The notes under the pieces: generated by a model
The model's input: only the letters and a program-made list of their open reading frames with translations
Databases searched by the model: none
Told to the model about the DNA's origin: nothing
Assembly: GCA_964413715.1 (NCBI GenBank)
Contig: CAYPSN010000002.1
Span: 850 to 64,849 of the forward strand
From: an uncultured Candidatus Saccharibacteria bacterium
GTDB lineage: Bacteria > Patescibacteriota > Saccharimonadia > CAILAD01 > JADZBC01
Direction: 5' to 3'
Length of the DNA stretch: 64,000 nt
In this document: piece after piece, positions 13,496 to 63,936 of the stretch
Position numbering within the stretch: the stretch's first letter is position 1
Layout of the letters: the number at the start of each line of letters is the position of its first letter
Position numbers and translations under genes: made by a program

Positions 13496-13571
13496 GCCCT
13501 GGTAGCTCAGTGGATAGAGCGTCTCCGTCCTAAGGAGAGCGTCGGGGGTTCGATTCCCTCCCAGGGTACCA
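13496..13571 (+). tRNA. tRNA-Arg (anticodon CCT)
   Basis: GCCCTGGTAGCTCAGTGGATAGAGCGTCTCCGTCCTAAGGAGAGCGTCGGGGGTTCGATTCCCTCCCAGGGTACCA. Confidence 0.85.
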
Positions 13572-13576
13572 TTCTA

Positions 13577-13605
13577 TTGACTTTTTTAATTACTTATGCT
13601 ATTAT
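13577..13605 (+). promoter_or_regulatory. near-consensus sigma70 promoter
   Basis: TTGACT-17 nt-TATTAT, followed by a 5'-UTR hairpin GGTACCAG..CTGGTACC and RBS AAAGGAGG. Confidence 0.55.
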
Positions 13606-13672
13606 AGGCAAGTTCTAACGTTCAGGTACCAGTCACACAAAGCTGGTACCGCTCCTACCCAAAGGAGGCGCC

Positions 13673-14002
13673 GTGAGGCGTATCTTGATTGCAATGCTGA
13701 TCGTACTCTTCGGAGTCTGCATCAGCTCGGTCGCCCCTGCGGCTACCCAGGGCGGCACGCCACCAACGACGGTACCGCCCATCACGCCCACGACAGCGTG
13801 GCAGACAGTTCCGCCGACTGTGGATCCGCCCACCATCACCCCGTCGACTGTTCGGCCGTCAGCCAGCAACAGACCATCAACGGTCGAGGTCAAAGGGTTG
13901 CACGAAGTAATCGTGCTGATGCGATGGGTGGTGGTGGCCGCCTTTCTCGCATGTGCGATCCTCATATGGATCCTCATGCGGTTGTACCGGCCAAGCCGGT
14001 GA
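13673..14002 (+). CDS. small secreted/anchored Pro/Thr-rich protein (signal peptide, PT-rich linker, C-terminal TM)
   Basis: GTG start 6 nt after AAAGGAGG. MRRILIAMLIVLFGVCISSVAPAA signal peptide, TPPTTVPPITPTT repeats, C-terminal helix WVVVAAFLACAILIWILM. Confidence 0.5.
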   Translation: MRRILIAMLIVLFGVCISSVAPAATQGGTPPTTVPPITPTTAWQTVPPTVDPPTITPSTVRPSASNRPSTVEVKGLHEVIVLMRWVVVAAFLACAILIWILMRLYRPSR

Positions 14003-14008
14003 TATTCC

Positions 14009-14057
14009 GCCTGGCGGGGACGACAAGATCGTCCTTAGCCGGGCGATCTTTCGTTTA
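14009..14057 (+). repeat. copy 1 of ~47-bp direct repeat (hairpin + T-run, terminator-like)
   Basis: CGCCTGGCGGGGACGACAAGATCGTCCTTAGCCGGGCGATCTTTCGTTT; second copy at 14491-14542 with 4-5 mismatches. Confidence 0.7.
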
Positions 14058-14145
14058 GGAGAAATAATCAATGACGGCAAGTGGTATAATTGTATTCTCC
14101 CGCACAGTCCAAACCACTCCGCTTCGCAGATCAAAGTGAGGAATA

Positions 14146-14463
14146 ATGAAGAGACCACCCCGCCCCAGAAGCTTGGATGATGTTAACCAGCTCGTAGCGG
14201 AGCTACTTGAAACTGGTAGGCCAAAGGTAGCGAATCTCCCTATCCTCAACCGAGATGACGCAATCTTAAGAATGCTGGCGCTCATTGGGATTTGCTGGGG
14301 ACGAGACGAAGCCATGCTCGAATCGATCCTGGGTGAAGATGTCAAATTGGTTGATCCAGCAGAGAACGTAAAGTTTGCAGTTCGACAGCAAGACGGCTCT
14401 TACGTATTTGTAGACAAGTTTGACCAACTCAAGTCAACCGTCTACTACATGCTGAGCTCCTAG
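14146..14463 (+). CDS. hypothetical protein (105 aa) flanked by the direct repeats
   Basis: ORF with lower GC than its high-GC neighbours; no recognisable motif. Confidence 0.4.
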   Translation: MKRPPRPRSLDDVNQLVAELLETGRPKVANLPILNRDDAILRMLALIGICWGRDEAMLESILGEDVKLVDPAENVKFAVRQQDGSYVFVDKFDQLKSTVYYMLSS

Positions 14464-14490
14464 ATGAACTGCACAAAGCAGAGAGTTAAT

Positions 14491-14542
14491 CGCCCGACGG
14501 GGACGACAAGATCTTCCTTAGCCGGGCGGTCTTTCGTTTTTA
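14491..14542 (+). repeat. copy 2 of ~47-bp direct repeat
   Basis: CGCCCGACGGGGACGACAAGATCTTCCTTAGCCGGGCGGTCTTTCGTTTTT. Confidence 0.7.
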
Positions 14543-14643
14543 CACATAGAACTGCTTGCGCTTGAAATAACGAACAATTTGTTTAATAATCTGCTCCATG
14601 CATCGTGCAACAAGCGTACGAGCAAGAACCCCTAGGGGGAACA

Positions 14644-14871
14644 TTGAAAGTAATCGGAACAGCAGTCTCGCTCGGCCTCACGGCCGCAGTGGGTGCAGTC
14701 AGCCTGGCACTCGCCAGCGAACGCAAGCACGCCGACCAAGCTCGGCCGAAGGAGCTCCAATACCAGGGAGGGCCTCACTTCCTCGACCAGCTGGTCGGAG
14801 CCATGTACATCTTGGCGCCCATCGCCCTGGTGTGGCGTGCCACGCGCAAGCTGCGCGGAGGTGGCTGGTGA
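14644..14871 (+). CDS. small 2-TM membrane protein (75 aa), first gene of a high-GC overlapping four-gene operon
   Basis: TTG start after GGGGGA; two hydrophobic helices. Start is ambiguous; the ORF track GTG is at 14605. Confidence 0.4.
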   Translation: MKVIGTAVSLGLTAAVGAVSLALASERKHADQARPKELQYQGGPHFLDQLVGAMYILAPIALVWRATRKLRGGGW

Positions 14872-15017
14872 TCAAGCGATTCGTCGGCAAGACCCTGCTC
14901 TACACTGCAACGATCGGTGCTGGTGCTGCTATCGGCATCGGCTCGGTCAGGGTTGGTGAATGGGCGCTCCTCCACGGTTGGGATCGGCTGATGAACCCAA
15001 GTGCGAGGCGCCCATGA
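14868..15017 (+). CDS. hypothetical 49-aa protein, GTGA-overlap coupled
   Basis: GTG at 14868 overlaps the upstream TGA (GTGA). Same frame as ORF-track 14598-15017. Confidence 0.35.
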   Translation: MIKRFVGKTLLYTATIGAGAAIGIGSVRVGEWALLHGWDRLMNPSARRP

Positions 15018-15277
15018 GCCAGCCCTACAGAGGCAAAGACCCGAACTTCACCCAAGAGTGGTGGGATCTGGTTTGCTCGGCCCCTGAAAAGATCGAGCAT
15101 GCTCGCGCTAAGACCAAGGCAATTCGTGAAGGCAGAGCTCCAGTCGTACACTACGACTACGGCGATGTATTAACCAAGGCTGGCCTTGATGCTGCTGCCG
15201 AAGTCTTAGCTAGGGACAAGAAAACGCGTGTCAGTCAAGCTGACCGACTCCTGCCAGCGAGTCTCCGCGATGAATAA
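15014..15277 (+). CDS. hypothetical 87-aa protein, ATGA-overlap coupled
   Basis: ATG at 15014 overlaps the upstream TGA; sequence MSQPYRGKDPNFTQEWWDL... Confidence 0.4.
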   Translation: MSQPYRGKDPNFTQEWWDLVCSAPEKIEHARAKTKAIREGRAPVVHYDYGDVLTKAGLDAAAEVLARDKKTRVSQADRLLPASLRDE

Positions 15278-15362
15278 GCCAACCAGGACCCAGCGGCTGG
15301 CCTACCGAATAGGTCGATTCTTCGGCCTGGTCATCGGCGCGTTCCTGCGCGTCTTCGACTAA
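15270..15362 (+). CDS. 30-aa basic amphipathic peptide (not in ORF track)
   Basis: ATG at 15270 overlaps the upstream gene end (ATGAATAA); MNKPTRTQRLAYRIGRFFGLVIGAFLRVFD, then stop. Confidence 0.3.
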   Translation: MNKPTRTQRLAYRIGRFFGLVIGAFLRVFD

Positions 15363-15417
15363 AATAGCGCGGGGTAAGCGGCGATTGCAGCCGGCCCCGC
15401 AGACTATGCCCATAACC

Positions 15418-58249: not shown

Positions 58250-59179
58250 CTACCCTTCCTTCTTGCAGAGTGCAATAATCAGATTCTGCGTGGCGCTACT
58301 GCTATCGAGCATGCCAGTCTTGATACTGTAATCAGCTTCTACGATCAGTGCATATGCCCGACGCAAATCATCCAGCGTCATTTTCATAGCTACTTGCATA
58401 GCTTTTTCGGCAGGGTATGGCTTAATGCCAAATTGCTTAGCCCAACCACTTCCCTGGCCAGCGTTATCGTGTGCCAACACAATATTGCGATACTGCCCCA
58501 CGAGCATTGCGATGATCTGCTGGTCAGCCACCCCCTGCCGTACCAAATTCTTGTATGTCGACATAGCTCGATCCAGGTTTTGCGCCACCACCGCGTCAGT
58601 AAGTTCAAAAATCGTCTGCTCTACATTGGCCACCACTAATTCTTCAATTGCTGTCTGTGTAACGTTTTTATCATAAGCCACCAGCTTTTGAATCTCTTGT
58701 GCCAGCTGCCACTGGTCATTACCAATACGCCTGAGTAAGCTCATGGCAAGTGCGGGCGAAATTGTTCCGCCGTGGCGCTGGGCCTGCTGCACTATCCAAT
58801 CACGCAGTGCCACGTCACTAAGCTGCTTAAATTCCTTCGCCTGCTTCAAGGCAGAGAGTTTCTTAAAGTAACTACTACGCCGATCAACCTTCGGCTCCTC
58901 TATAAGTAGCACCGTACTATCGGCAACAGAAGCCAAAACTTCATCAATCTTTTCTACAGCCTTTTTATTGTCACCCAACCCGCGTAGAATGATGAACCGA
59001 CTACTTGCCAACAGCGGCATTACTGCTAGGGCATCGAGCAAGTTGCCCACCGAATGTTCGGCCATATCGATTACTTCTAAGTTTAAATCCCCATCAGATT
59101 TTTTGGCATAATGGCCCTTTAGCCGCTCCACTTCTTGCCGCATCGCGTAGCTGTTTTCGCCATAAAAGAATAGAATCAT
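58250..59179 (-). CDS. holA: DNA polymerase III subunit delta
   Basis: MILFFYGENSYAMRQEVERL N-terminus and overall architecture; 309 aa. Confidence 0.75.
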   Translation of the reverse strand: MILFFYGENSYAMRQEVERLKGHYAKKSDGDLNLEVIDMAEHSVGNLLDALAVMPLLASSRFIILRGLGDNKKAVEKIDEVLASVADSTVLLIEEPKVDRRSSYFKKLSALKQAKEFKQLSDVALRDWIVQQAQRHGGTISPALAMSLLRRIGNDQWQLAQEIQKLVAYDKNVTQTAIEELVVANVEQTIFELTDAVVAQNLDRAMSTYKNLVRQGVADQQIIAMLVGQYRNIVLAHDNAGQGSGWAKQFGIKPYPAEKAMQVAMKMTLDDLRRAYALIVEADYSIKTGMLDSSSATQNLIIALCKKEG

Positions 59180-59194
59180 ATACCTATTGTACCT

Positions 59195-59259
59195 GAAAAT
59201 AAAAAAGGACCCCGCTGGCCAGCTCGCCTCCCGAAGGATTTGAGCCAGCCAGCCGAGTC
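59195..59259 (-). repeat. 65-bp terminator-like repeat, copy 1
   Basis: GAAAATAAAAAAGGACCCCGCTGGCCAGCTCGCCTCCCGAAGGATTTGAGCCAGCCAGCCGAGTC; identical copy at 59871-59935. Confidence 0.8.
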
Positions 59260-59260
59260 A

Positions 59261-59803
59261 TCACCAGCCGTCGGATCGTTCTCTGTGCTCTTCCCACGTC
59301 GACCTGAGGACACCTAGCAGTTCCTCTACGTCGCTTCTGCACTTTGCATCATCCGTCACTACTGCCCAGCCAAGTTCAGCGCATGAACCATCCTCTATGT
59401 TATCCATCGAATAACAAAGCATGAGGGCATCAACGACAACAGTCTTGTCGTCACCTTGTTGGAACACAACGATATAGAGAGTTCCGCCAGCGAACGTTGG
59501 GCCGCATGCCAGCAAGAGGTCGTTCCGCAGCTCAGCGTCGATAAGCTCATCTTCTACACCAACGAACTCGATGACGCTCCTGAACTGATCATCCCGTGCC
59601 AATCTGACTTGGTGGCAATAGCACGGCCCTCGAGGCCGTACATAGGCTTGTATGAAGTCAGCTAGCAGACCAAGCGCTGCCTGCACCAAATCGCACTTGC
59701 GGCAGGTACCAGTTCCGAGCTCGATGCTCTTGTCCCTCCACTGTTCCACATGCACCCTGCGAGAATGAGGGTGCCACGAAACAGCCAAAACTGACCTGTT
59801 CAA
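59261..59803 (-). CDS. hypothetical Cys-rich protein (~180 aa), high GC
   Basis: TTG at 59803 after AAAGGAAA; GTG starts at 59755 and 59749 are also possible. CRKCDL..CYCH cysteine cluster. Confidence 0.35.
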   Translation of the reverse strand: MNRSVLAVSWHPHSRRVHVEQWRDKSIELGTGTCRKCDLVQAALGLLADFIQAYVRPRGPCYCHQVRLARDDQFRSVIEFVGVEDELIDAELRNDLLLACGPTFAGGTLYIVVFQQGDDKTVVVDALMLCYSMDNIEDGSCAELGWAVVTDDAKCRSDVEELLGVLRSTWEEHRERSDGW

Positions 59804-59870
59804 TTTATTTCCTTTCAAAGGCCTATTGGGCAATGTAAGTATGCTGCTGGGGACCAATAAAATCAAGCGT

Positions 59871-59935
59871 GAAAATAAAAAAGGACCCCGCTGGCCAGCT
59901 CGCCTCCCGAAGGATTTGAGCCAGCCAGCCGAGTC
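59871..59935 (-). repeat. 65-bp terminator-like repeat, copy 2
   Basis: Identical to copy 1; 12 nt downstream (minus strand) of the 65-aa ORF stop. Confidence 0.8.
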
Positions 59936-59947
59936 GGCATGTTCCCC

Positions 59948-60145
59948 TCAGTCGGGGAACGGATTGGTGGAGCCGGCCATCGCCAGGTCCATGGAGCCAC
60001 CACCGCGCGGGCGGCGCTGGGGGGTGAGGACGTCCCAGCCCTCACTCAGCTCCGGATGGTCACGGCAGATCTCGCCGTGGGTCTTGCCCTGGGCTCGCAT
60101 CTCCTCGATGCGAGCCGCCTGCTGTCGTGGGCTCAGATCGCCCAT
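59948..60145 (-). CDS. small hypothetical protein (65 aa), overlaps the 3' end of the 696-aa ORF by 85 nt
   Basis: ATG preceded by GGAGAGGAA. Whether this ORF or the C-terminal tail of the large ORF is real cannot be decided from sequence. Confidence 0.3.
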   Translation of the reverse strand: MGDLSPRQQAARIEEMRAQGKTHGEICRDHPELSEGWDVLTPQRRPRGGGSMDLAMAGSTNPFPD

Positions 60146-62150
60146 GTTGGTTCCTCTCCGCCCGTTCGTGGGCTAGGTAGGTAAGCTTGCGGTCGCAAGC
60201 TCGGTGGGTGTATCGCAAACTACGAACCATCTGTTCGGCCCGTAGTACATCTGGATGCCCTGCATCGCTCCTTTCGTATCCTTCGGACAGATCAACGGCC
60301 TCGTGCCAGTACACCTGCGAGGAGGAGTACTCGAGTAGAAGTCTACCAGGCAATTCCGACCCAGTCCAGCTACGAAGATGATTCACCACTGCCAGCGCAA
60401 CGCTGTAGTCAGGGAGACTCACTTCAATAGCCGGGTCGAGTCTAGCAGGCCTCTCACGAGAGAATTCTTCCCCCAACAACCTCAGCTTTCGCCTTAGCCA
60501 GATTGTTGCCGCAGCAAACATTCTATGACGACGAAACTCATCATCATCAAGAAACAGTCGGGCGAGAGCCTCGATTACCTCGCTCTCATGCTCTTCGGGA
60601 TAGATATCATCCCTAAAGCCAAGAAGCTCGAGAGCAAGCCTCAAATCCTGAAATCGCATCAGGCCCAAGGTCTCCTCAGCAGTTAGTTCACCACTTTCCC
60701 CAGAGAATCCAGAGAGCCTCTCCTCAAAGAACTCTTCGAGTAAGTACAGAGGCTCGAGAGTCTCTGCCAGCCAACTGGGCGATTCGAGATAGTACTCGAA
60801 TTGGACCTGCTCTTGTTCGCGCCGGGTAATAGCATCCGTATCCACCGGAAGTTCGGACATGACCTGCATCATAGTCCTTGCTCCCTCTATGGCAGATCTC
60901 AGATCGTCACTCCACTGGACGGTGGATCGCCTGAGCGCTCCACCGTCATCTGCAACAATCGTAAGCCCAGGCAGAACCTTGGCATACTTTTCAAGCAGAG
61001 CGTGTATGGCTGGTATCCCCCAGTCAGCATCGAGCTCAGCCAACGTGCGCTGATATGGATCGAGATGCCACCAGCTCCCGTCGTTTACCTGCAGCACTAC
61101 TCCGTAGTGAAAATCCATGACTTTCACCTGAGAGCGTTGCAAGAAAGTAAGCTCTTTTGAGGACCAGTCATGGAAAGAGGTGCCTGCACCCCCGAGCTCC
61201 TCGAAGGCCTCATGAACTTCGGTATAGACAGGCAGCTTGTCGGCAACCAATCTATCCACCGCCCACTCGATCTGTGACGCAAGAAGCACCGGAGCACCTG
61301 CGAGGCGAGCAAAAGCTAGTAGTGCAATACTCATTCCAAGACAGTTCGGGGTTTGGGTGCCTTCACCCAACTTGCCGTATTGCCTAGGTAGAACGCCCTC
61401 GGCCGGGTAGTCGTTTTCACCAGAGATGCCTTCGAACCACCCATAGTTCGACCTGAGGTGATGCATATCAACCACATAGTTGGCGATAACTTCGTTACCC
61501 TTCTGAACTTCCTTGGGGTCTTCATCCTCGTCGTTGTTCGCAGGATTGCGTGCGTAATCCAATGCCAATTGCGCCAAATCGGCTTCGTCGGCCTTCTCAA
61601 GGCGCCGAAGATGCCGAATGGCTTCTTCGACTTCTTCCGGATAGTAGGTAACGACAATATCGTCAGTCACCTCTACATGCCAACATGGTCCGGTTCGCCC
61701 CCTGGCTGCCTCAAGTTCTTGGTTAGTTTTCGTAATCCTGTAAGCCTTGAGCAACTCGTCATAAACCGTCTGCAGAGCAGTGCGTTGGTCGGCCAGGCTA
61801 AGGGCTTGCCACATAAGGGCGACATTCCTTACAGTATCCGGCAGGCACTCCGCCGCAGCATCTATGAGGCTTTCGCCAAGATGCTCCAGCACGACAGCAT
61901 CAAACGGATCAATTCCGCCAAACACACCAGCCTGCTTAAGCGCTTGGTCTTCTGGGAGGGCATTGAAAAGCTCACCCATTTCGATGTGGCCTGCCCTGTA
62001 GGCGATTGACTCATCGAATTCACCAAGCTGCAAAAGCGAGTAAAGATCGCGACGCTCACGCGTCTCGGCGACCGAATCACAAACTGCTTGTTCGAACGTA
62101 ATGCCGCAGCCCTTTTCAAAGGCCATAGCAACGAGCTCCATGAACTCCAT
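60060..62150 (-). CDS. large acidic hypothetical protein with central transglutaminase-like (papain-fold Cys-His-Asp) core
   Basis: ATG 5 nt after AGGAGGG. NCLGMSIALLAFARLAGAPVLL (Cys), DFHYGVVLQVNDGSWWHLDPY (His..Asp) in the spacing typical of Transglut_core. Confidence 0.5.
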   Translation of the reverse strand: MEFMELVAMAFEKGCGITFEQAVCDSVAETRERRDLYSLLQLGEFDESIAYRAGHIEMGELFNALPEDQALKQAGVFGGIDPFDAVVLEHLGESLIDAAAECLPDTVRNVALMWQALSLADQRTALQTVYDELLKAYRITKTNQELEAARGRTGPCWHVEVTDDIVVTYYPEEVEEAIRHLRRLEKADEADLAQLALDYARNPANNDEDEDPKEVQKGNEVIANYVVDMHHLRSNYGWFEGISGENDYPAEGVLPRQYGKLGEGTQTPNCLGMSIALLAFARLAGAPVLLASQIEWAVDRLVADKLPVYTEVHEAFEELGGAGTSFHDWSSKELTFLQRSQVKVMDFHYGVVLQVNDGSWWHLDPYQRTLAELDADWGIPAIHALLEKYAKVLPGLTIVADDGGALRRSTVQWSDDLRSAIEGARTMMQVMSELPVDTDAITRREQEQVQFEYYLESPSWLAETLEPLYLLEEFFEERLSGFSGESGELTAEETLGLMRFQDLRLALELLGFRDDIYPEEHESEVIEALARLFLDDDEFRRHRMFAAATIWLRRKLRLLGEEFSRERPARLDPAIEVSLPDYSVALAVVNHLRSWTGSELPGRLLLEYSSSQVYWHEAVDLSEGYERSDAGHPDVLRAEQMVRSLRYTHRACDRKLTYLAHERAERNQHGRSEPTTAGGSHRGDASPGQDPRRDLP

Positions 62151-62194
62151 TTGGCCCTCCTGGGCTATGTCAAAGCTGCCCTAAGGCAGTTGCC

Positions 62195-62207
62195 ACCGAA
62201 TTTCGGT
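62195..62207. promoter_or_regulatory. 6-1-6 palindrome ACCGAAtTTCGGT between promoter and RBS of the 696-aa gene (candidate operator)
   Basis: Perfect inverted half-sites; shares the CCGAA core with the microrepeat array upstream of the RHH gene. Confidence 0.4.
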
Positions 62208-62215
62208 ACCGCCGA

Positions 62216-62244
62216 TTTATACCATTTTTCACCTTAAAATACAA
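62216..62244 (-). promoter_or_regulatory. sigma70-like promoter of the 696-aa gene
   Basis: Minus strand TTGTAT-17 nt-TATAAA. Confidence 0.45.
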
Positions 62245-62253
62245 TCATAAGTG

Positions 62254-62318
62254 CAATAAAAAAGGACTCCGCTGGCCAGCTCGTCATCCCTTGGGAATCA
62301 GAGCCAGCCAGCCGAGTC
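62254..62318 (-). repeat. 65-bp terminator-like repeat, diverged copy 3
   Basis: CAATAAAAAAGGACTCCGCTGGCCAGCTCGTCATCCCTTGGGAATCAGAGCCAGCCAGCCGAGTC. Stem arms conserved; loop changed while keeping an inner mini-hairpin. Confidence 0.8.
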
Positions 62319-62319
62319 G

Positions 62320-62571
62320 TCACATGCGAAGTTCGAGCTCCCTTTCGGTGCCATCAGGCGCCCGAACGACGATGATGCATCCCTCCAGGGCACCACACTC
62401 GACAAGCCATCCAAGCGTCTGGAGGGAAGACCTCAAGACCCAGCTTGTATTCACGCCGAATTTGCCTTTCAGACCTTCGAGAATGGCTTTTTCCTCGCGA
62501 TTCACCCTGACCTGCAACGTCTCTTCACGAGACTGCGTGCCAGACAAACTGAGCACCTGGCGATCTGTCAC
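62320..62571 (-). CDS. ribbon-helix-helix DNA-binding protein (MobC/CopG-like), 83 aa
   Basis: Perfect SD AGGAGG-8 nt-GTG at 62571; LQVRVNREEKAILEGLKGKFGVNTSWVLRSSL matches the RHH beta-strand plus two-helix pattern. Confidence 0.5.
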   Translation of the reverse strand: MTDRQVLSLSGTQSREETLQVRVNREEKAILEGLKGKFGVNTSWVLRSSLQTLGWLVECGALEGCIIVVRAPDGTERELELRM

Positions 62572-62608
62572 AACAACTACCTCCTTATAGGATGCGATGA
62601 GCACTGTG

Positions 62609-62637
62609 AGTATGCAGCTTACTGGGCCAGATTTCAA
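62609..62637 (-). promoter_or_regulatory. sigma70-like promoter of RHH gene
   Basis: Minus strand TTGAAA-17 nt-CATACT. Confidence 0.4.
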
Positions 62638-62680
62638 CCCCTAAAACGAAAAGAGGCCCAGCCGGCCCCGCCCTTCCCCC

Positions 62681-62857
62681 GCCGAAGCGTGGAGTTGGTG
62701 CGGGACCGGCCGAAGCCGTTATGCGGTTGGCATGGCATGCATGCTTCCCCGCGGGATGTCGCTGTCGCTGTGAGCCGAAGGCGGATGGCCGACTGCAGAT
62801 GGCGATGCGATGGAACCGAAGGTCGATGGTCGAAGACCGAAGGCCGAAGGTTCGAAG
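62681..62857. repeat. degenerate microrepeat array (CCGAAGG / CGATGG units, at least 8 copies)
   Basis: Copies at 62681, 62710, 62775, 62815, 62829, 62837, 62844 and 62852, in ~500 bp of visibly GC-rich sequence without a convincing ORF, upstream of the RHH gene. Confidence 0.6.
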
Positions 62858-63267
62858 GCTCCTGTAACCCTGGGCAGGGGGCCGTAAGCACACTCGAGCG
62901 CTCGAGTCAGGAGCTTTACCTGCTCCAACCACGTCCTTGGACACCCGGCTTTCGCCAGGAGGATGTAGCTTGCCTACGTATCAACCTACGTGGTGATCCG
63001 CGGACCGTTCCACTCCACCATTCTGCACACGGCATCAGGCTTTAGGTTAATTCTCGTCTTTCCGAGCTGTCCGCCAGTCTGTCTGGCACATCACCCCTAG
63101 CCGAAGCGTGAGGGCGAACTTGTGATTAATTTTCCACGTGTTGTCCGGCTTTTTATTTTGCGGGACAAAGAATATTATAGCCTACGAAGACTTTTTGTCA
63201 ATATCTATTTGAGCTTCTGGCACTTGGGGCAAATATGTGTGCCGCGGCCAGCCAATCATGACTATTA

Positions 63268-63936
63268 TTAACCTTGTGATTTGTACTGCTCTATTGCCTC
63301 GGATATTCGCACCCTCTCAGGCAATTCCTGATTAAGTTTTGCCATCTCAGAGCCTGGCACTATCGTAAGCTTGATGAGTTCGTCGGCGTCGCCCCCTGTG
63401 GCAATTATTTGATCAATCGTTTCGTCACTCAAGCTATATGTGTCACGTAGAATACCCCTACTCGCCTCCTGAGTTTCTGTCGAAAATAATGCCCCGATCA
63501 CTTCACCCAAGCGAGCTCGAGCTGGATTCGGACCTTGGGGCTCTTTGCCTGTTAATCCTGCTACAATCTCATAAGTAGCCTCTTTACCCGAACTACCAAA
63601 TGGGTCTTTGAGCTCATGAATATCGTCATCTACAGCCCAATCACGAACTCGAGACTCAGGGTATACCGCCAGGGCGTCCGATTCATCAACTACCATTGTG
63701 TCGGGATCAACACCCTGTGGAGTACGACCGTCTGCGTCCATGAGCTGAATAATGTCTTTCGGGTGGGTTATATAAGCCCCTACCTTAAATGCCTTCCCTG
63801 TACCACCTTTAAAAGCCTTTTCTTTCGCATTACGACTCTGCCTTGCGCCACCGCTGGCTTTTTCACGTAGTTCATTATATTCATGCATTAAAGCGCGTGC
63901 GGCCAGGATATTCTGCTTTTGTTCTGCCGTGACCAC
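63268..63936 (-). CDS. hypothetical protein; frame stays open to the window end (start either GTG 63936 or beyond 64000)
   Basis: No in-frame stop between 63936 and 64000; AAGG 10 nt upstream of the GTG; no family recognised. Confidence 0.4.
   Translation of the reverse strand: MVTAEQKQNILAARALMHEYNELREKASGGARQSRNAKEKAFKGGTGKAFKVGAYITHPKDIIQLMDADGRTPQGVDPDTMVVDESDALAVYPESRVRDWAVDDDIHELKDPFGSSGKEATYEIVAGLTGKEPQGPNPARARLGEVIGALFSTETQEASRGILRDTYSLSDETIDQIIATGGDADELIKLTIVPGSEMAKLNQELPERVRISEAIEQYKSQG

What the first reader, a model, noticed from the sequence alone, without database searches (positions are those of the whole stretch)
59195..63140. High-GC cassette array: RHH regulator, transglutaminase-like 696-aa protein, 65-aa ORF and Cys-rich protein, separated by one shared 65-bp element
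Between holA (ends 59179) and the partial gene at 63268 lies about 4 kb of visibly GC-richer DNA. Read on the minus strand, the order is:
- a CCGAAGG microrepeat array;
- a promoter, then an 83-aa RHH protein with a perfect AGGAGG SD;
- repeat copy 3;
- a promoter plus the ACCGAAtTTCGGT palindrome, then a 696-aa protein with a papain-fold transglutaminase-like Cys/His/Asp core;
- an overlapping 65-aa ORF;
- repeat copy 2;
- a promoter, then a ~180-aa Cys-rich protein;
- repeat copy 1.
None of the proteins belongs to a housekeeping family I can name. A DNA-binding RHH protein with iteron-like repeats next to a putative peptidase or effector, with modules bounded by identical 3' elements, looks like a horizontally acquired unit. 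It may derive from a plasmid or ICE and may act as a regulator-plus-effector or toxin module. I cannot tie it to any described system.
Basis: partly seen in the sequence, partly recalled or inferred. Interest (0 to 1): 0.7.

Follow-up and report, generated by a model that had tools for sequence, protein, structure and literature searches.

The report
Terminator-bounded gene cassettes beside novel RNA
In an uncultured Saccharibacteria genome, a variable spot between two core genes holds an undescribed structured RNA and then unrelated genes (one a transglutaminase-like enzyme), each ending in a copy of that RNA's terminator hairpin, an arrangement like a gene-cassette array with no recombinase in sight.

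Summary
Window 59.2-63.2 kb is the most GC-rich and most compositionally deviant 4 kb of the window, and three independent assemblies give it identically. It sits in a hypervariable spot between fpg and holA, which are adjacent in most related Saccharibacteria.

- **65-bp repeat:** it is a strand-specific intrinsic terminator (17-18 bp hairpin plus U-run). It is a paralogue of the 3' hairpin of a conserved RNA.
- **RNA:** about 430-530 nt, structured, with no Rfam match. Four genomes carry it, and 26 of 70 pairs show compensatory changes. The microrepeat is a 45-nt strain-specific expansion inside it.
- **696-aa protein:** it belongs to an unannotated family with an invariant Cys270/His348/Asp364. 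Its fold resembles transglutaminase-like enzymes.
- **65-aa ORF:** it is this protein's conserved small partner.
- **RHH call:** it rests on sub-threshold hits only.
- **Coupling and origin:** the RHH and the enzyme are separable units, and nothing links the locus to plasmids, phages or ICEs.

Best reading: independent transcription units accumulated at a recombination hot spot, and the copied terminator marks the unit boundaries. How the units were inserted is inferred, not shown.

The parts
63215..63255 (-). Remnant of the ancestral 3' end of fpg. It is a 40-nt direct repeat of the 3' end of the current fpg gene, and the pair flanks the inserted 497-aa gene.
   Evidence: 37/40 identity between L001 7321-7361 and L001 8896-8936. 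The downstream copy aligns with the fpg ends of L004-L008 and L023.
63174..63201 (-). Promoter of the structured RNA: TTGACA, 16 nt, TATAAT (12/12).
   Evidence: Promoter-like hexamers sit at the same place in L005, L004 and L007, read from the alignments.
62640..63168 (-). Candidate structured non-coding RNA of about 525 nt (430-475 nt in relatives). GC is 0.595 and no Rfam family matches.
   Evidence: Homologues in L005, L004 and L007. RNAalifold predicts 70 pairs; 26 have compensatory changes. 95 % of cells pair, against 28-43 % when the partners are slid, and 0/500 shuffles reach the observed value. No Rfam match at E <= 1 or <= 5. MFE z-score -3.7.
62811..62855 (-). Heptamer microrepeat (CCTTCGG-like). 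It is a 45-nt expansion segment specific to this strain inside the RNA.
   Evidence: TRF. Absent from L005, L004 and L007 in alignments A1 and A4. Coordinates.
62640..62716 (-). The RNA's own 3' terminator hairpin plus U-run. It is the diverged fourth member of the repeat family.
   Evidence: Terminator scan. The hairpin profile hits it with E = 9e-9. The RNA profile hits the three repeats with E = 6e-6, 8e-6 and 0.012.
62320..62571 (-). 83-aa probable ribbon-helix-helix protein. It has a GTG start, AGGAGG 8 nt upstream, and a weak promoter at 62637-62609.
   Evidence: Pfam RHH_1 E = 0.076 here and 0.023 for the 90 % identical L005 orthologue. That orthologue is the only other relative among 5.8 billion proteins.
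62255..62321 (-). Terminator-hairpin repeat copy 3. It starts 2 nt after the RHH stop codon. Its apical loop differs but still pairs.
   Evidence: (-38.5 kcal/mol, z = -5.6).
62195..62244 (-). Putative promoter of the 696-aa gene (TTGTAT, 17 nt, TGgTATAAA), followed by the palindrome ACCGAA-N-TTCGGT (62195-62207), which is operator-like.
   Evidence: The promoter was read directly and was not reported by the scan. The palindrome is unique in the window, with 0.06 expected.
60060..62150 (-). 696-aa cytoplasmic transglutaminase-like (papain-fold Cys-His-Asp) protein with large helical N- and C-terminal domains.
59948..60145 (-). 65-aa partner ORF that overlaps the 3' tail of the 696-aa gene by 86 nt. 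GC is 0.69.
   Evidence: Homologous small ORFs follow the 696-aa homologues in L085 (also present uncalled in L084) and L086, and more weakly in L089 and L088. The shared motif is G(K/M)TH..I...HPEL..GW...PRGGGS. The Pfam DUF433 hit is weak (E = 0.006).
59870..59935 (-). Terminator-hairpin repeat copy 2.
   Evidence: (-37.1 kcal/mol, z = -4.3).
59261..59749 (-). Orphan 162-aa protein (ORF extendable to 201 aa at 59866). It is Cys-rich, with CxxC at 16-19 and CxC at 43-45.
   Evidence: No match in Pfam, NCBIfam, PADLOC, PHROGs or PDB. The region is not more structured than shuffles (z = -0.75).
59194..59259 (-). Terminator-hairpin repeat copy 1. It starts 1 nt after the stop codon of the 162-aa ORF, and the holA start lies 15 nt downstream.
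   Evidence: (-36.8 kcal/mol, z = -4.4). It is the positional equivalent of the single hairpin of L006, of copy c of L005, and of the RNA 3' end of L007.

Best explanation
The region is a strain-variable islet in the fpg-holA intergenic hot spot of a Saccharibacteria (Ca. Saccharimonadia) chromosome. It is not one operon. It is a row of independent transcription units, all co-oriented with the flanking core genes:
1. a strongly promoted, structured non-coding RNA of about 525 nt of unknown function;
2. a small, probable RHH DNA-binding protein;
3. a transglutaminase-like Cys-His-Asp enzyme with its conserved 65-aa partner;
4. an orphan Cys-rich protein.

Each protein unit ends, within 1-15 nt of its stop codon, in a copy of one Rho-independent terminator (a 17-18 bp hairpin with G.U pairs, then a U-run). 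That terminator is a paralogue of the RNA gene's own 3' hairpin.

Shown:
- the anatomy;
- the homology of the repeat to the RNA's 3' end;
- the conservation and covariation of the RNA;
- the variability of the site;
- the catalytic triad and fold of the enzyme.

Inferred:
- The hairpins terminate transcription and so insulate the units.
- Their copies, like the duplicated 40-nt fpg end next door, are footprints of insertion by recombination at short local homology. This would be Campbell-type or homology-facilitated illegitimate recombination after DNA uptake.
- The copies remain the points at which units are gained, lost and homogenised.
- The enzyme most likely cleaves or cross-links a cytoplasmic protein substrate, under control of, or in complex with, its small partner.
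For: **Hot spot**
- fpg and holA are 22-80 bp apart in L008, L009, L019, L020 and L024. They are directly adjacent in the tblastn maps of another seven Saccharibacteria loci.
- The gap is 0.25-5.6 kb, with different contents, in the window and nine other loci: L005-L007, L010, L016-L018, L021 and L023.

**Breakpoints**
- Between the window and L005, only four things are shared: the fpg end, the block from promoter through RNA and RHH to a hairpin (80.7 % over 812 nt), the hairpins, and the holA start.
- The cargo between hairpins differs. The window has the 696 + 65-aa pair and the 162-aa gene. L005 has an 82-aa gene, a 130-aa gene and a 160-aa cytidylyltransferase. L006 has the 130-aa and 160-aa genes.

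**Origin of the hairpin**
- In L007 the whole fpg-holA spacer is the RNA, and its last 65 nt are the repeat (nhmmer E = 6e-32).
- L004 has fpg, then the RNA, then holA.
- The alignment of 11 copies is.

**Terminator**
- Free energies are -37 to -38.5 kcal/mol, with z-scores of -4.3 to -5.6. G.U pairs form only in the minus-strand RNA, and a U-run follows.
- Changes between copies are G.U to G-C changes or compensatory ones.

**Locus-restricted and evolving in concert**
- All window copies carry GAGCTGG. All L005 copies carry GAGCCGG.
- Copies 1 and 2 are identical over 66 nt.

**A second insertion footprint**
- A 40-nt fpg-end repeat flanks the 497-aa gene.

**Other**
- Foreign composition.
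- RNA evidence.
- Enzyme evidence.
- Partner ORF.
Against: - Only four genomes carry the RNA and five carry the hairpin, so the history is reconstructed from very few states.
- Nothing shows that recombination takes place at the hairpins. No circular junctions or alternative orders were examined.
- The contig breaks inside the hairpins are what any repeat would cause.
- Termination and expression are predicted only.
- The structure was derived from the same four-sequence alignment on which the pairs were counted (warns that this inflates the contrast with the slid controls).
- The RNA could be a cis-acting leader. In L004 and L007 it directly precedes holA.
- In L005 one hairpin lies upstream of the RNA, so the copies do not simply spread downstream from the RNA.
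- The RHH fold is unconfirmed.
- The 162-aa ORF has no homologue and may not be a functional gene.
Confidence: 0.55

Rival explanations
1. Integron-like cassette array, of the type called a cluster of attC sites lacking an integrase. The hairpin would be the recombination site of a site-specific recombinase encoded elsewhere. It would fold as single-stranded DNA, and cassettes would be captured and excised as circles.
For: - Unrelated genes each end in one conserved imperfect hairpin of about 65 nt, all in the same orientation. Identical copies flank the 162-aa unit.
- Related genomes hold different cassettes between the same repeats.
- The copies are homogenised within a genome.
Against: - No tyrosine recombinase or any other recombinase lies within about 10 kb on either side.
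- The hairpin has no RYYYAAC or GTTRRRY core sites on either strand (read).
- It carries a U-run and G.U pairs, which are features of an RNA terminator on the coding strand.
- The units appear to have their own promoters.
- There are only 3-4 copies.
- The neighbouring 497-aa insertion used a different repeat, the fpg end. That points to a homology-driven process rather than a site-specific one.
Confidence: 0.13
2. One horizontally acquired regulator-plus-effector (or toxin-antitoxin-like) module from a plasmid or ICE. The RHH protein would bind the CCGAAGG repeats and the palindrome to control the transglutaminase-like effector.
For: - An operator-like palindrome lies between the -10 element and the SD of the 696-aa gene.
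- A half-site-like TTCGGT recurs in the microrepeat.
- There are sub-threshold RHH hits.
- The composition is foreign.
Against: - The RHH gene is separated from the 696-aa gene by a strong terminator. In L005 it occurs with the RNA but without the enzyme.
- Five homologues of the enzyme in other contigs have no RHH neighbour. Four of the five (not L087) keep a small partner ORF directly downstream.
- The microrepeat is absent from L005, whose RHH is 90 % identical.
- There are no plasmid, phage or defence-system matches.
Confidence: 0.07
3. The 0.5-kb 'RNA' is not a gene. It would be either decayed coding sequence or a long cis-regulatory leader with an attenuator for the downstream gene (holA in L004 and L007, the RHH gene here). 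The hairpin copies would then be nothing more than duplicated attenuator or terminator stems.
For: - In L004 and L007 the element lies directly upstream of holA and ends in a terminator, which is the classic leader layout.
- ORFs of 69-119 aa can be drawn through it.
- It is known from only four genomes.
Against: - Indels among the four homologues have lengths of 1, 2, 4, 7, 13, 15 and 45 nt, and no ORF is shared.
- 26 pairs keep pairing through changes on both sides.
- holA keeps its own TACAAT -10 element downstream of the hairpin, including in L008, which lacks the element.
- In the window and in L005 the element is separated from holA by 1.5-3.4 kb of cassettes, yet it is conserved with its consensus promoter.
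Confidence: 0.15

Closest known systems
Integron gene-cassette arrays and CALINs (clusters of attC sites lacking an integrase)
   Same: A row of unrelated, co-oriented genes, each followed by one family of imperfect hairpin repeats of about 60-70 nt. Related genomes differ in content. The repeats are homogenised within a genome, as in chromosomal integrons.
   Different: No integrase is present and the hairpin has no R or L core-site consensus. The hairpin is an RNA terminator with a U-run and derives from the 3' end of an RNA gene. The units seem to carry their own promoters. There are only 3-4 copies.
Intergenic hot-spot islets between conserved core genes, such as the 'minimal mobile elements' described in Neisseria (from my own knowledge)
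   Same: Different whole genes occupy the same gap between two conserved core genes in related strains. This is best explained by recombination after DNA uptake. No mobility genes are present.
   Different: Here the inserted units are individually bounded by copies of a local hairpin or of the fpg end. The site also holds a structured RNA gene.
Genomic islands integrated at the 3' ends of tRNA or tmRNA genes
   Same: Direct repeats that copy the 3' end of a structured-RNA gene delimit successive inserted segments.
   Different: The segments are only 0.3-2.4 kb, carry no integrase, and include the terminator rather than the mature RNA end. One hairpin copy in L005 lies upstream of the RNA.
Transglutaminase-like / papain-fold Cys-His-Asp superfamily (Pfam Transglut_core PF01841; arylamine N-acetyltransferases, LapG, PeiW, vasohibin, the menin thumb domain)
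   Same: The order Cys...His...Asp is invariant. Cys sits at the N-terminus of a helix, and His and Asp sit on adjacent strands in the model. The local motifs C-x(8)-FARLAGAP and H-x(11)-W-x(3)-DP resemble the PF01841 consensus; that comparison is from my own knowledge.
   Different: The query itself does not match PF01841, and only 8 of 60 relatives do so, weakly. The core is embedded between helical domains of about 240 and 290 residues. A conserved small partner ORF follows it. The substrate and the reaction are unknown.
Large structured bacterial RNAs of unknown function (OLE, GOLLD, ROOL, HEARO, raiA)
   Same: It exceeds 400 nt and is GC-rich relative to the genome. It has many covarying helices, invariant unpaired blocks and variable peripheral expansions, and it has its own strong promoter and terminator.
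   Different: No sequence or structure match to any of these or to any other Rfam 15 family. It is known from only four closely related genomes, at one fixed locus.
Ribbon-helix-helix regulators (CopG/Arc/MetJ, MobC/NikA)
   Same: The size and the strand-helix-helix pattern at residues 19-50 fit. Pfam RHH_1 and NikA-like hits fall at the right place.
   Different: All hits are below threshold. A C-terminal beta-hairpin extension is present. The structure prediction failed.

Membership tests
Intrinsic (Rho-independent) terminator | A stable GC-rich hairpin directly followed by a U-run on the transcribed strand, placed just after a stop codon. | tested here: met
   -36.8 to -38.5 kcal/mol, z = -4.3 to -5.6, followed by UUUUUUAUU. 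G.U pairs occur on the minus strand only. The hairpins start 1-15 nt after the stop codons. Termination activity itself was not tested.
Integron attC site / CALIN | Core sites R'' (RYYYAAC) and R' (GTTRRRY) at the ends of the hairpin. | tested here: not met
   Neither motif is present on either strand of the eight hairpin-repeat copies listed.
Integron attC site / CALIN | An integron integrase (IntI) nearby, or at least an array of promoter-less cassettes. | tested here: not met
   Pfam-annotated genes within 10 kb on either side include no recombinase. The units have promoter-like sites.
Transglutaminase-like superfamily (PF01841) | A conserved Cys-His-Asp triad in that order. | tested here: met
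   C270, H348 and D364 are the only invariant columns in 60 family members.
Transglutaminase-like superfamily (PF01841) | A significant profile match to Transglut_core. | tested here: inconclusive
   The query has no hit at E <= 1. 8 of 60 relatives hit, with a best E of 2.7e-4. No PDB sequence match.
Transglutaminase-like superfamily (PF01841) | A papain-like alpha+beta core fold, with Cys on a helix N-terminus and His and Asp on a beta-sheet. | tested here: met
   - The AF2 model has pLDDT 84.7. A helix starts at residue 270, with strands at 349-354 and 360-364.
- Foldseek lists mostly transglutaminases, but not significantly.
Ribbon-helix-helix (Pfam RHH_1) | A profile match above the gathering score, or an RHH fold. 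| tested here: inconclusive
   13.4 and 15.1 bits against a cut-off of 20.5. The AF2 model has pLDDT 44 and is unusable. No PDB match.
Any Rfam 15 RNA family (including RNase P, tmRNA, 6S, SRP, OLE, GOLLD, ROOL, HEARO, raiA, group I/II introns) | A covariance-model match. | tested here: not met
   No match at the gathering scores in the window. None at E <= 1 in 59000-63400. None at E <= 5 in the L004 and L007 homologues. ARAGORN finds no tmRNA.
Plasmid-, phage- or ICE-derived module | Similarity to plasmid or phage records, or adjacent mobility genes. | tested here: not met
   tblastn and blastn against plasmids and phages give no match. IMG/VR gives none. PHROGs and PADLOC give none.
Dispersed hairpin repeats (REP/BIME/MITE-like) | Many copies dispersed over the genome. 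| tested here: not met
   Copies occur only in the fpg-holA gap of the window and of L004-L007. None lies elsewhere in 64 kb plus about 1.5 Mb of loci. Whole genomes could not be searched.
Toxin-antitoxin or defence system | A match to known toxin, antitoxin or defence profiles, or a conserved two-gene operon with the RHH. | tested here: not met
   PADLOC finds nothing. The RHH gene and the 696-aa gene are not co-conserved.

The most novel reading that the evidence does not exclude
The terminator hairpin of a previously unknown structured RNA would be the attachment site of a cassette-capture system in Saccharibacteria, that is, an integron analogue in the ultra-small CPR bacteria. It would work either through a recombinase encoded elsewhere or through the RNA itself taking part in recombination, for example as a guide or as the target. 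The RNA would then be a new class of large functional RNA, not a leader.
Probability: 0.1. Interest if true: 0.9.

Novelty: new variant of a known kind. Interest (0 to 1): 0.58.

Why it matters
- **Genome plasticity in CPR bacteria.** Saccharibacteria have tiny, streamlined genomes and few recognisable mobile elements, so how they gain genes is poorly understood. This locus shows a concrete hot spot where single genes are added between two core genes. The footprints are readable: a duplicated gene end, and a copied terminator that also marks the boundary of each unit.
- **A candidate new RNA.** The locus contains a large structured RNA with unusually good covariation support for only four sequences. 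RNAs over 400 nt of unknown function are rare and have repeatedly led to new biology.
- **An unannotated enzyme family.** It also defines a family of about 180 clusters of transglutaminase-like Cys-His-Asp enzymes, each with a conserved small partner. That gives a starting point for biochemical work.

Tried and rejected
- **Word-indexed protein searches** found only self hits, or one orthologue, for the 696-aa protein, for its family profile and for the RHH. The exhaustive HMMER search was needed to find the family.
- **Exact-pattern scans** for the hairpin and the RNA motifs found nothing in genome contigs, metagenome contigs or viral contigs. The genome contigs pattern was stricter than the variation later seen in the relatives' copies. 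The metagenome and viral collections returned no locus from this lineage.
- **The search for related loci** with the 60-sequence alignment failed because no block was conserved enough. afdb50 was unavailable.
- **The covariance model** of the RNA core found only its four training sequences in 0.59 Mb of related loci.
- **The AF2 model of the RHH** was unusable, with pLDDT 44.
- **Readings considered and rejected:**
  - RNase P RNA or tmRNA: no CM or ARAGORN signal.
  - attC sites: no core motifs.
  - A type III TA repeat RNA: the heptamers are too short and are strain-specific.
  - A group IIC intron targeting terminators: no intron domains, and the RNA lies upstream of the hairpin.
  - The 497-aa gene as a recombinase: it has a weak glycosyltransferase-2 match instead.
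- **The 19-nt inverted repeat** at 59187-59205 and 63150-63168 (I2) consists of an A/T-run plus the holA -10 region. It is probably chance.

Full report
**Observation**

- ORFs: 83 aa (62571-62320), 696 aa (62150-60060), 65 aa (60145-59948) and 162-201 aa (59749/59866-59261).
- Repeat copies lie at 59194-59259, 59870-59935 and 62255-62323.
- A heptamer microrepeat lies at 62817-62858.
- A unique palindrome, ACCGAATTTCGGT, lies at 62195-62207.
- The block has GC 0.547, against 0.486 +/- 0.025 for all 4-kb windows. It also has the largest tetranucleotide deviation of any 4-kb window, 0.31 against 0.178 +/- 0.036.
- Contigs from three different samples are 100 % identical across it, so it is not a mis-assembly. 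Two of those contigs end inside hairpin copies, as expected for repeats.

**Organism and synteny**

PolA relatives identify an uncultured Saccharibacteria (Ca. Saccharimonadia) lineage. The closest genomes are L004-L008, at 81-86 % amino-acid identity.

Across the roughly 25 Saccharibacteria loci where both genes could be mapped, the order is polA ... fpg - holA - rpsT.
- fpg and holA are 22-80 bp apart in L008, L009, L019, L020 and L024. They are directly adjacent in the tblastn maps of L011-L013, L015, L022, L025, L026 and L035.
- The gap is 0.25-2.4 kb, with differing small ORFs, in L005-L007, L010, L016-L018, L021, L023 and L027.
- The gap is 5.6 kb in the window.

The gap is therefore a hot spot of variable content, and the finding is its largest known filling.

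**The repeat is a terminator**

Each copy folds, on the minus-strand RNA only, into a 17-18 bp hairpin that includes G.U pairs. The free energy is -37 to -38.5 kcal/mol, with z-scores of -4.3 to -5.6, and UUUUUUAUU follows. The hairpins start 1-15 nt after the stop codons of the 162-aa, 65-aa and 83-aa ORFs. Copy 3 has a different apical loop that still pairs.

Copies in L005 (three), L006 (one) and L007 (one) differ by G.U to G-C changes or by compensatory changes. No copy lies elsewhere in the 64-kb window, nor in about 1.5 Mb of related loci.

Copies within one genome share variants. The window copies carry GAGCTGG and the L005 copies carry GAGCCGG. This points to concerted evolution or to recent copying.

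**The repeat comes from an RNA gene**

Between the 497-aa gene and the RHH gene lies about 0.6 kb without a credible ORF. A perfect promoter (TTGACA, 16 nt, TATAAT; 63201-63174) opens it, and a terminator (62669-62643) closes it.

This stretch is 80.7 % identical to L005, and L004 holds a diverged homologue. A profile search then showed that the whole fpg-holA spacer of L007 is a fourth homologue (E = 6e-32). Its last 65 nt are the hairpin repeat. In L004 the order is fpg, RNA, holA. The RNA profile hits the three window repeats (E = 6e-6, 8e-6 and 0.012), and the hairpin profile hits the RNA's own 3' end (E = 9e-9).

On the four-sequence alignment, RNAalifold predicts 70 pairs.
- 26 pairs keep pairing through changes on both sides.
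- 95 % of cells are paired, against 28-43 % when the partners are slid by 1-3 columns.
- No shuffle out of 500 reaches the observed values.
- The caveat is that the structure was derived from the same alignment.

Indels of 1, 2, 4, 7 and 13 nt, and the lack of a shared ORF, argue against coding. No Rfam 15 family matches the window copy or the L004 and L007 copies, and ARAGORN finds no tmRNA.

It is absent from the other three homologues. A covariance model of the core found no further members in the loci held.

**Proteins**

*696-aa protein*
- The word-indexed search found only the protein itself. An exhaustive HMMER search found 181 representative relatives of 500-700 aa.
- In 60 of them the only invariant residues are C270, H348 and D364.
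- Eight of the 60 match Pfam Transglut_core weakly.
- The AF2 model is confident (pLDDT 84.7, pTM 0.83). It puts Cys270 at a helix N-terminus and puts His348 and Asp364 on adjacent strands.
- Transglutaminases make up most of the Foldseek top list, but without significance.
Family membership by profile remains inconclusive.

*65-aa ORF*
- It is a real gene. Homologous small ORFs directly follow the homologues of the enzyme in L085 (also present uncalled in L084) and L086, and more weakly in L089 and L088.

*83-aa protein*
- It and its 90 % identical L005 orthologue give only sub-threshold RHH_1 hits (E = 0.076 and 0.023).
- Structure prediction failed.

*162-aa ORF*
- It is an orphan with ten times the backbone cysteine content.
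- None of these proteins matches NCBIfam, PADLOC or PHROGs. The 696-aa protein and the island DNA match nothing in the plasmid and phage collections.

**How the parts relate**

The window and L005 share only four things: the fpg end, the block from promoter through RNA and RHH to a hairpin, the hairpins themselves, and the holA start. The cargo between hairpins is unrelated.

The RHH travels with the RNA block, not with the enzyme. Elsewhere the enzyme travels with its small partner and without an RHH. The "regulator plus effector" reading is therefore not supported. The units are independent, each with its own promoter-like site and terminator.

Next to the array, the 497-aa gene (weak glycosyltransferase-2 match) is flanked by a 40-nt direct repeat of the fpg 3' end. 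The downstream copy is the ancestral gene end. So at least two kinds of local sequence are duplicated around inserted genes. This fits recombination at short homology after DNA uptake, either Campbell-type or homology-facilitated illegitimate recombination, better than it fits a dedicated site-specific system. That step is an inference.

**Comparison with known systems**

The architecture resembles integron cassette arrays. It fails their defining tests, however: it has no integrase and no attC core motifs, and the units have promoter-like sites. It also resembles hot-spot islets between core genes, and islands bounded by copies of an RNA gene's 3' end.

I rate it a new variant of a known kind. 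It has two unannotated components: a structured RNA family, and a transglutaminase-like enzyme with its partner.

**Verdict**

- Interest is 0.58. It rests mainly on the RNA and on the copied-terminator cassette layout. It is tempered by the narrow distribution (four or five MAGs) and by the lack of direct evidence for mechanism.

Noticed in passing
window 63215-63255 and L001 7321-7361 (the 497-aa gene runs from window 63268 to beyond 64000; it is complete at L001 7390-8883): The 497-aa gene has a weak Pfam Glycos_transf_2 match (E = 2.4e-4). It is flanked by a 40-nt direct repeat (37/40) of the fpg 3' end. The downstream copy is the ancestral fpg end, so this gene is itself an insertion that rebuilt the end of fpg.
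   Followed up: partly
L005 15154-15402: An 82-aa ORF lies between fpg and a hairpin copy, upstream of the RNA. It looks like a second RHH-type protein with the same C-terminal beta-hairpin motif as the 83-aa protein (BLAST E = 0.13 only; no Pfam hit).
   Followed up: partly
L005 16535-17498 and L006 14928-15891: These genomes hold other cargo at the same hot spot: a 130-aa membrane-like ORF followed by the hairpin, then a 160-aa cytidylyltransferase-like gene (Pfam CTP_transf_like, E = 6e-17) inserted between the hairpin and holA.
   Followed up: partly
L007 6137-6183 (-) and L004 13343-13387 (-): Sub-threshold Hammerhead_3 matches (E = 0.97 and 3.4) lie at syntenic positions between the HAD gene and fpg in two related genomes. 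The region lies outside the window.
   Followed up: no
window 13600-15400: A stretch of about 1.8 kb next to tRNA-Arg (13496-13571) has GC 0.54-0.56 and only small ORFs. It may be a second islet at a tRNA gene.
   Followed up: no
window 59187-59205 and 63150-63168: A 19-nt inverted repeat (84 % complementary) brackets the block from the RNA 5' end to the last hairpin. It consists of an A/T-run plus the holA -10 region and is probably chance.
   Followed up: partly
window 59948-60145: The 65-aa partner ORF has GC 0.69 and GC3 0.82 in a 48 % GC genome. It overlaps a 28-codon C-terminal extension of the 696-aa gene that homologues lack. No gene caller had annotated it (the exact sequence is absent from the 15-billion-protein collection).
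   Followed up: partly
L002 end (window 59221) and L003 ends (window 62673 and 59907): Independent assemblies break inside hairpin copies. This is expected for repeats, but it would also be compatible with alternative cassette arrangements in the population.
   Followed up: no
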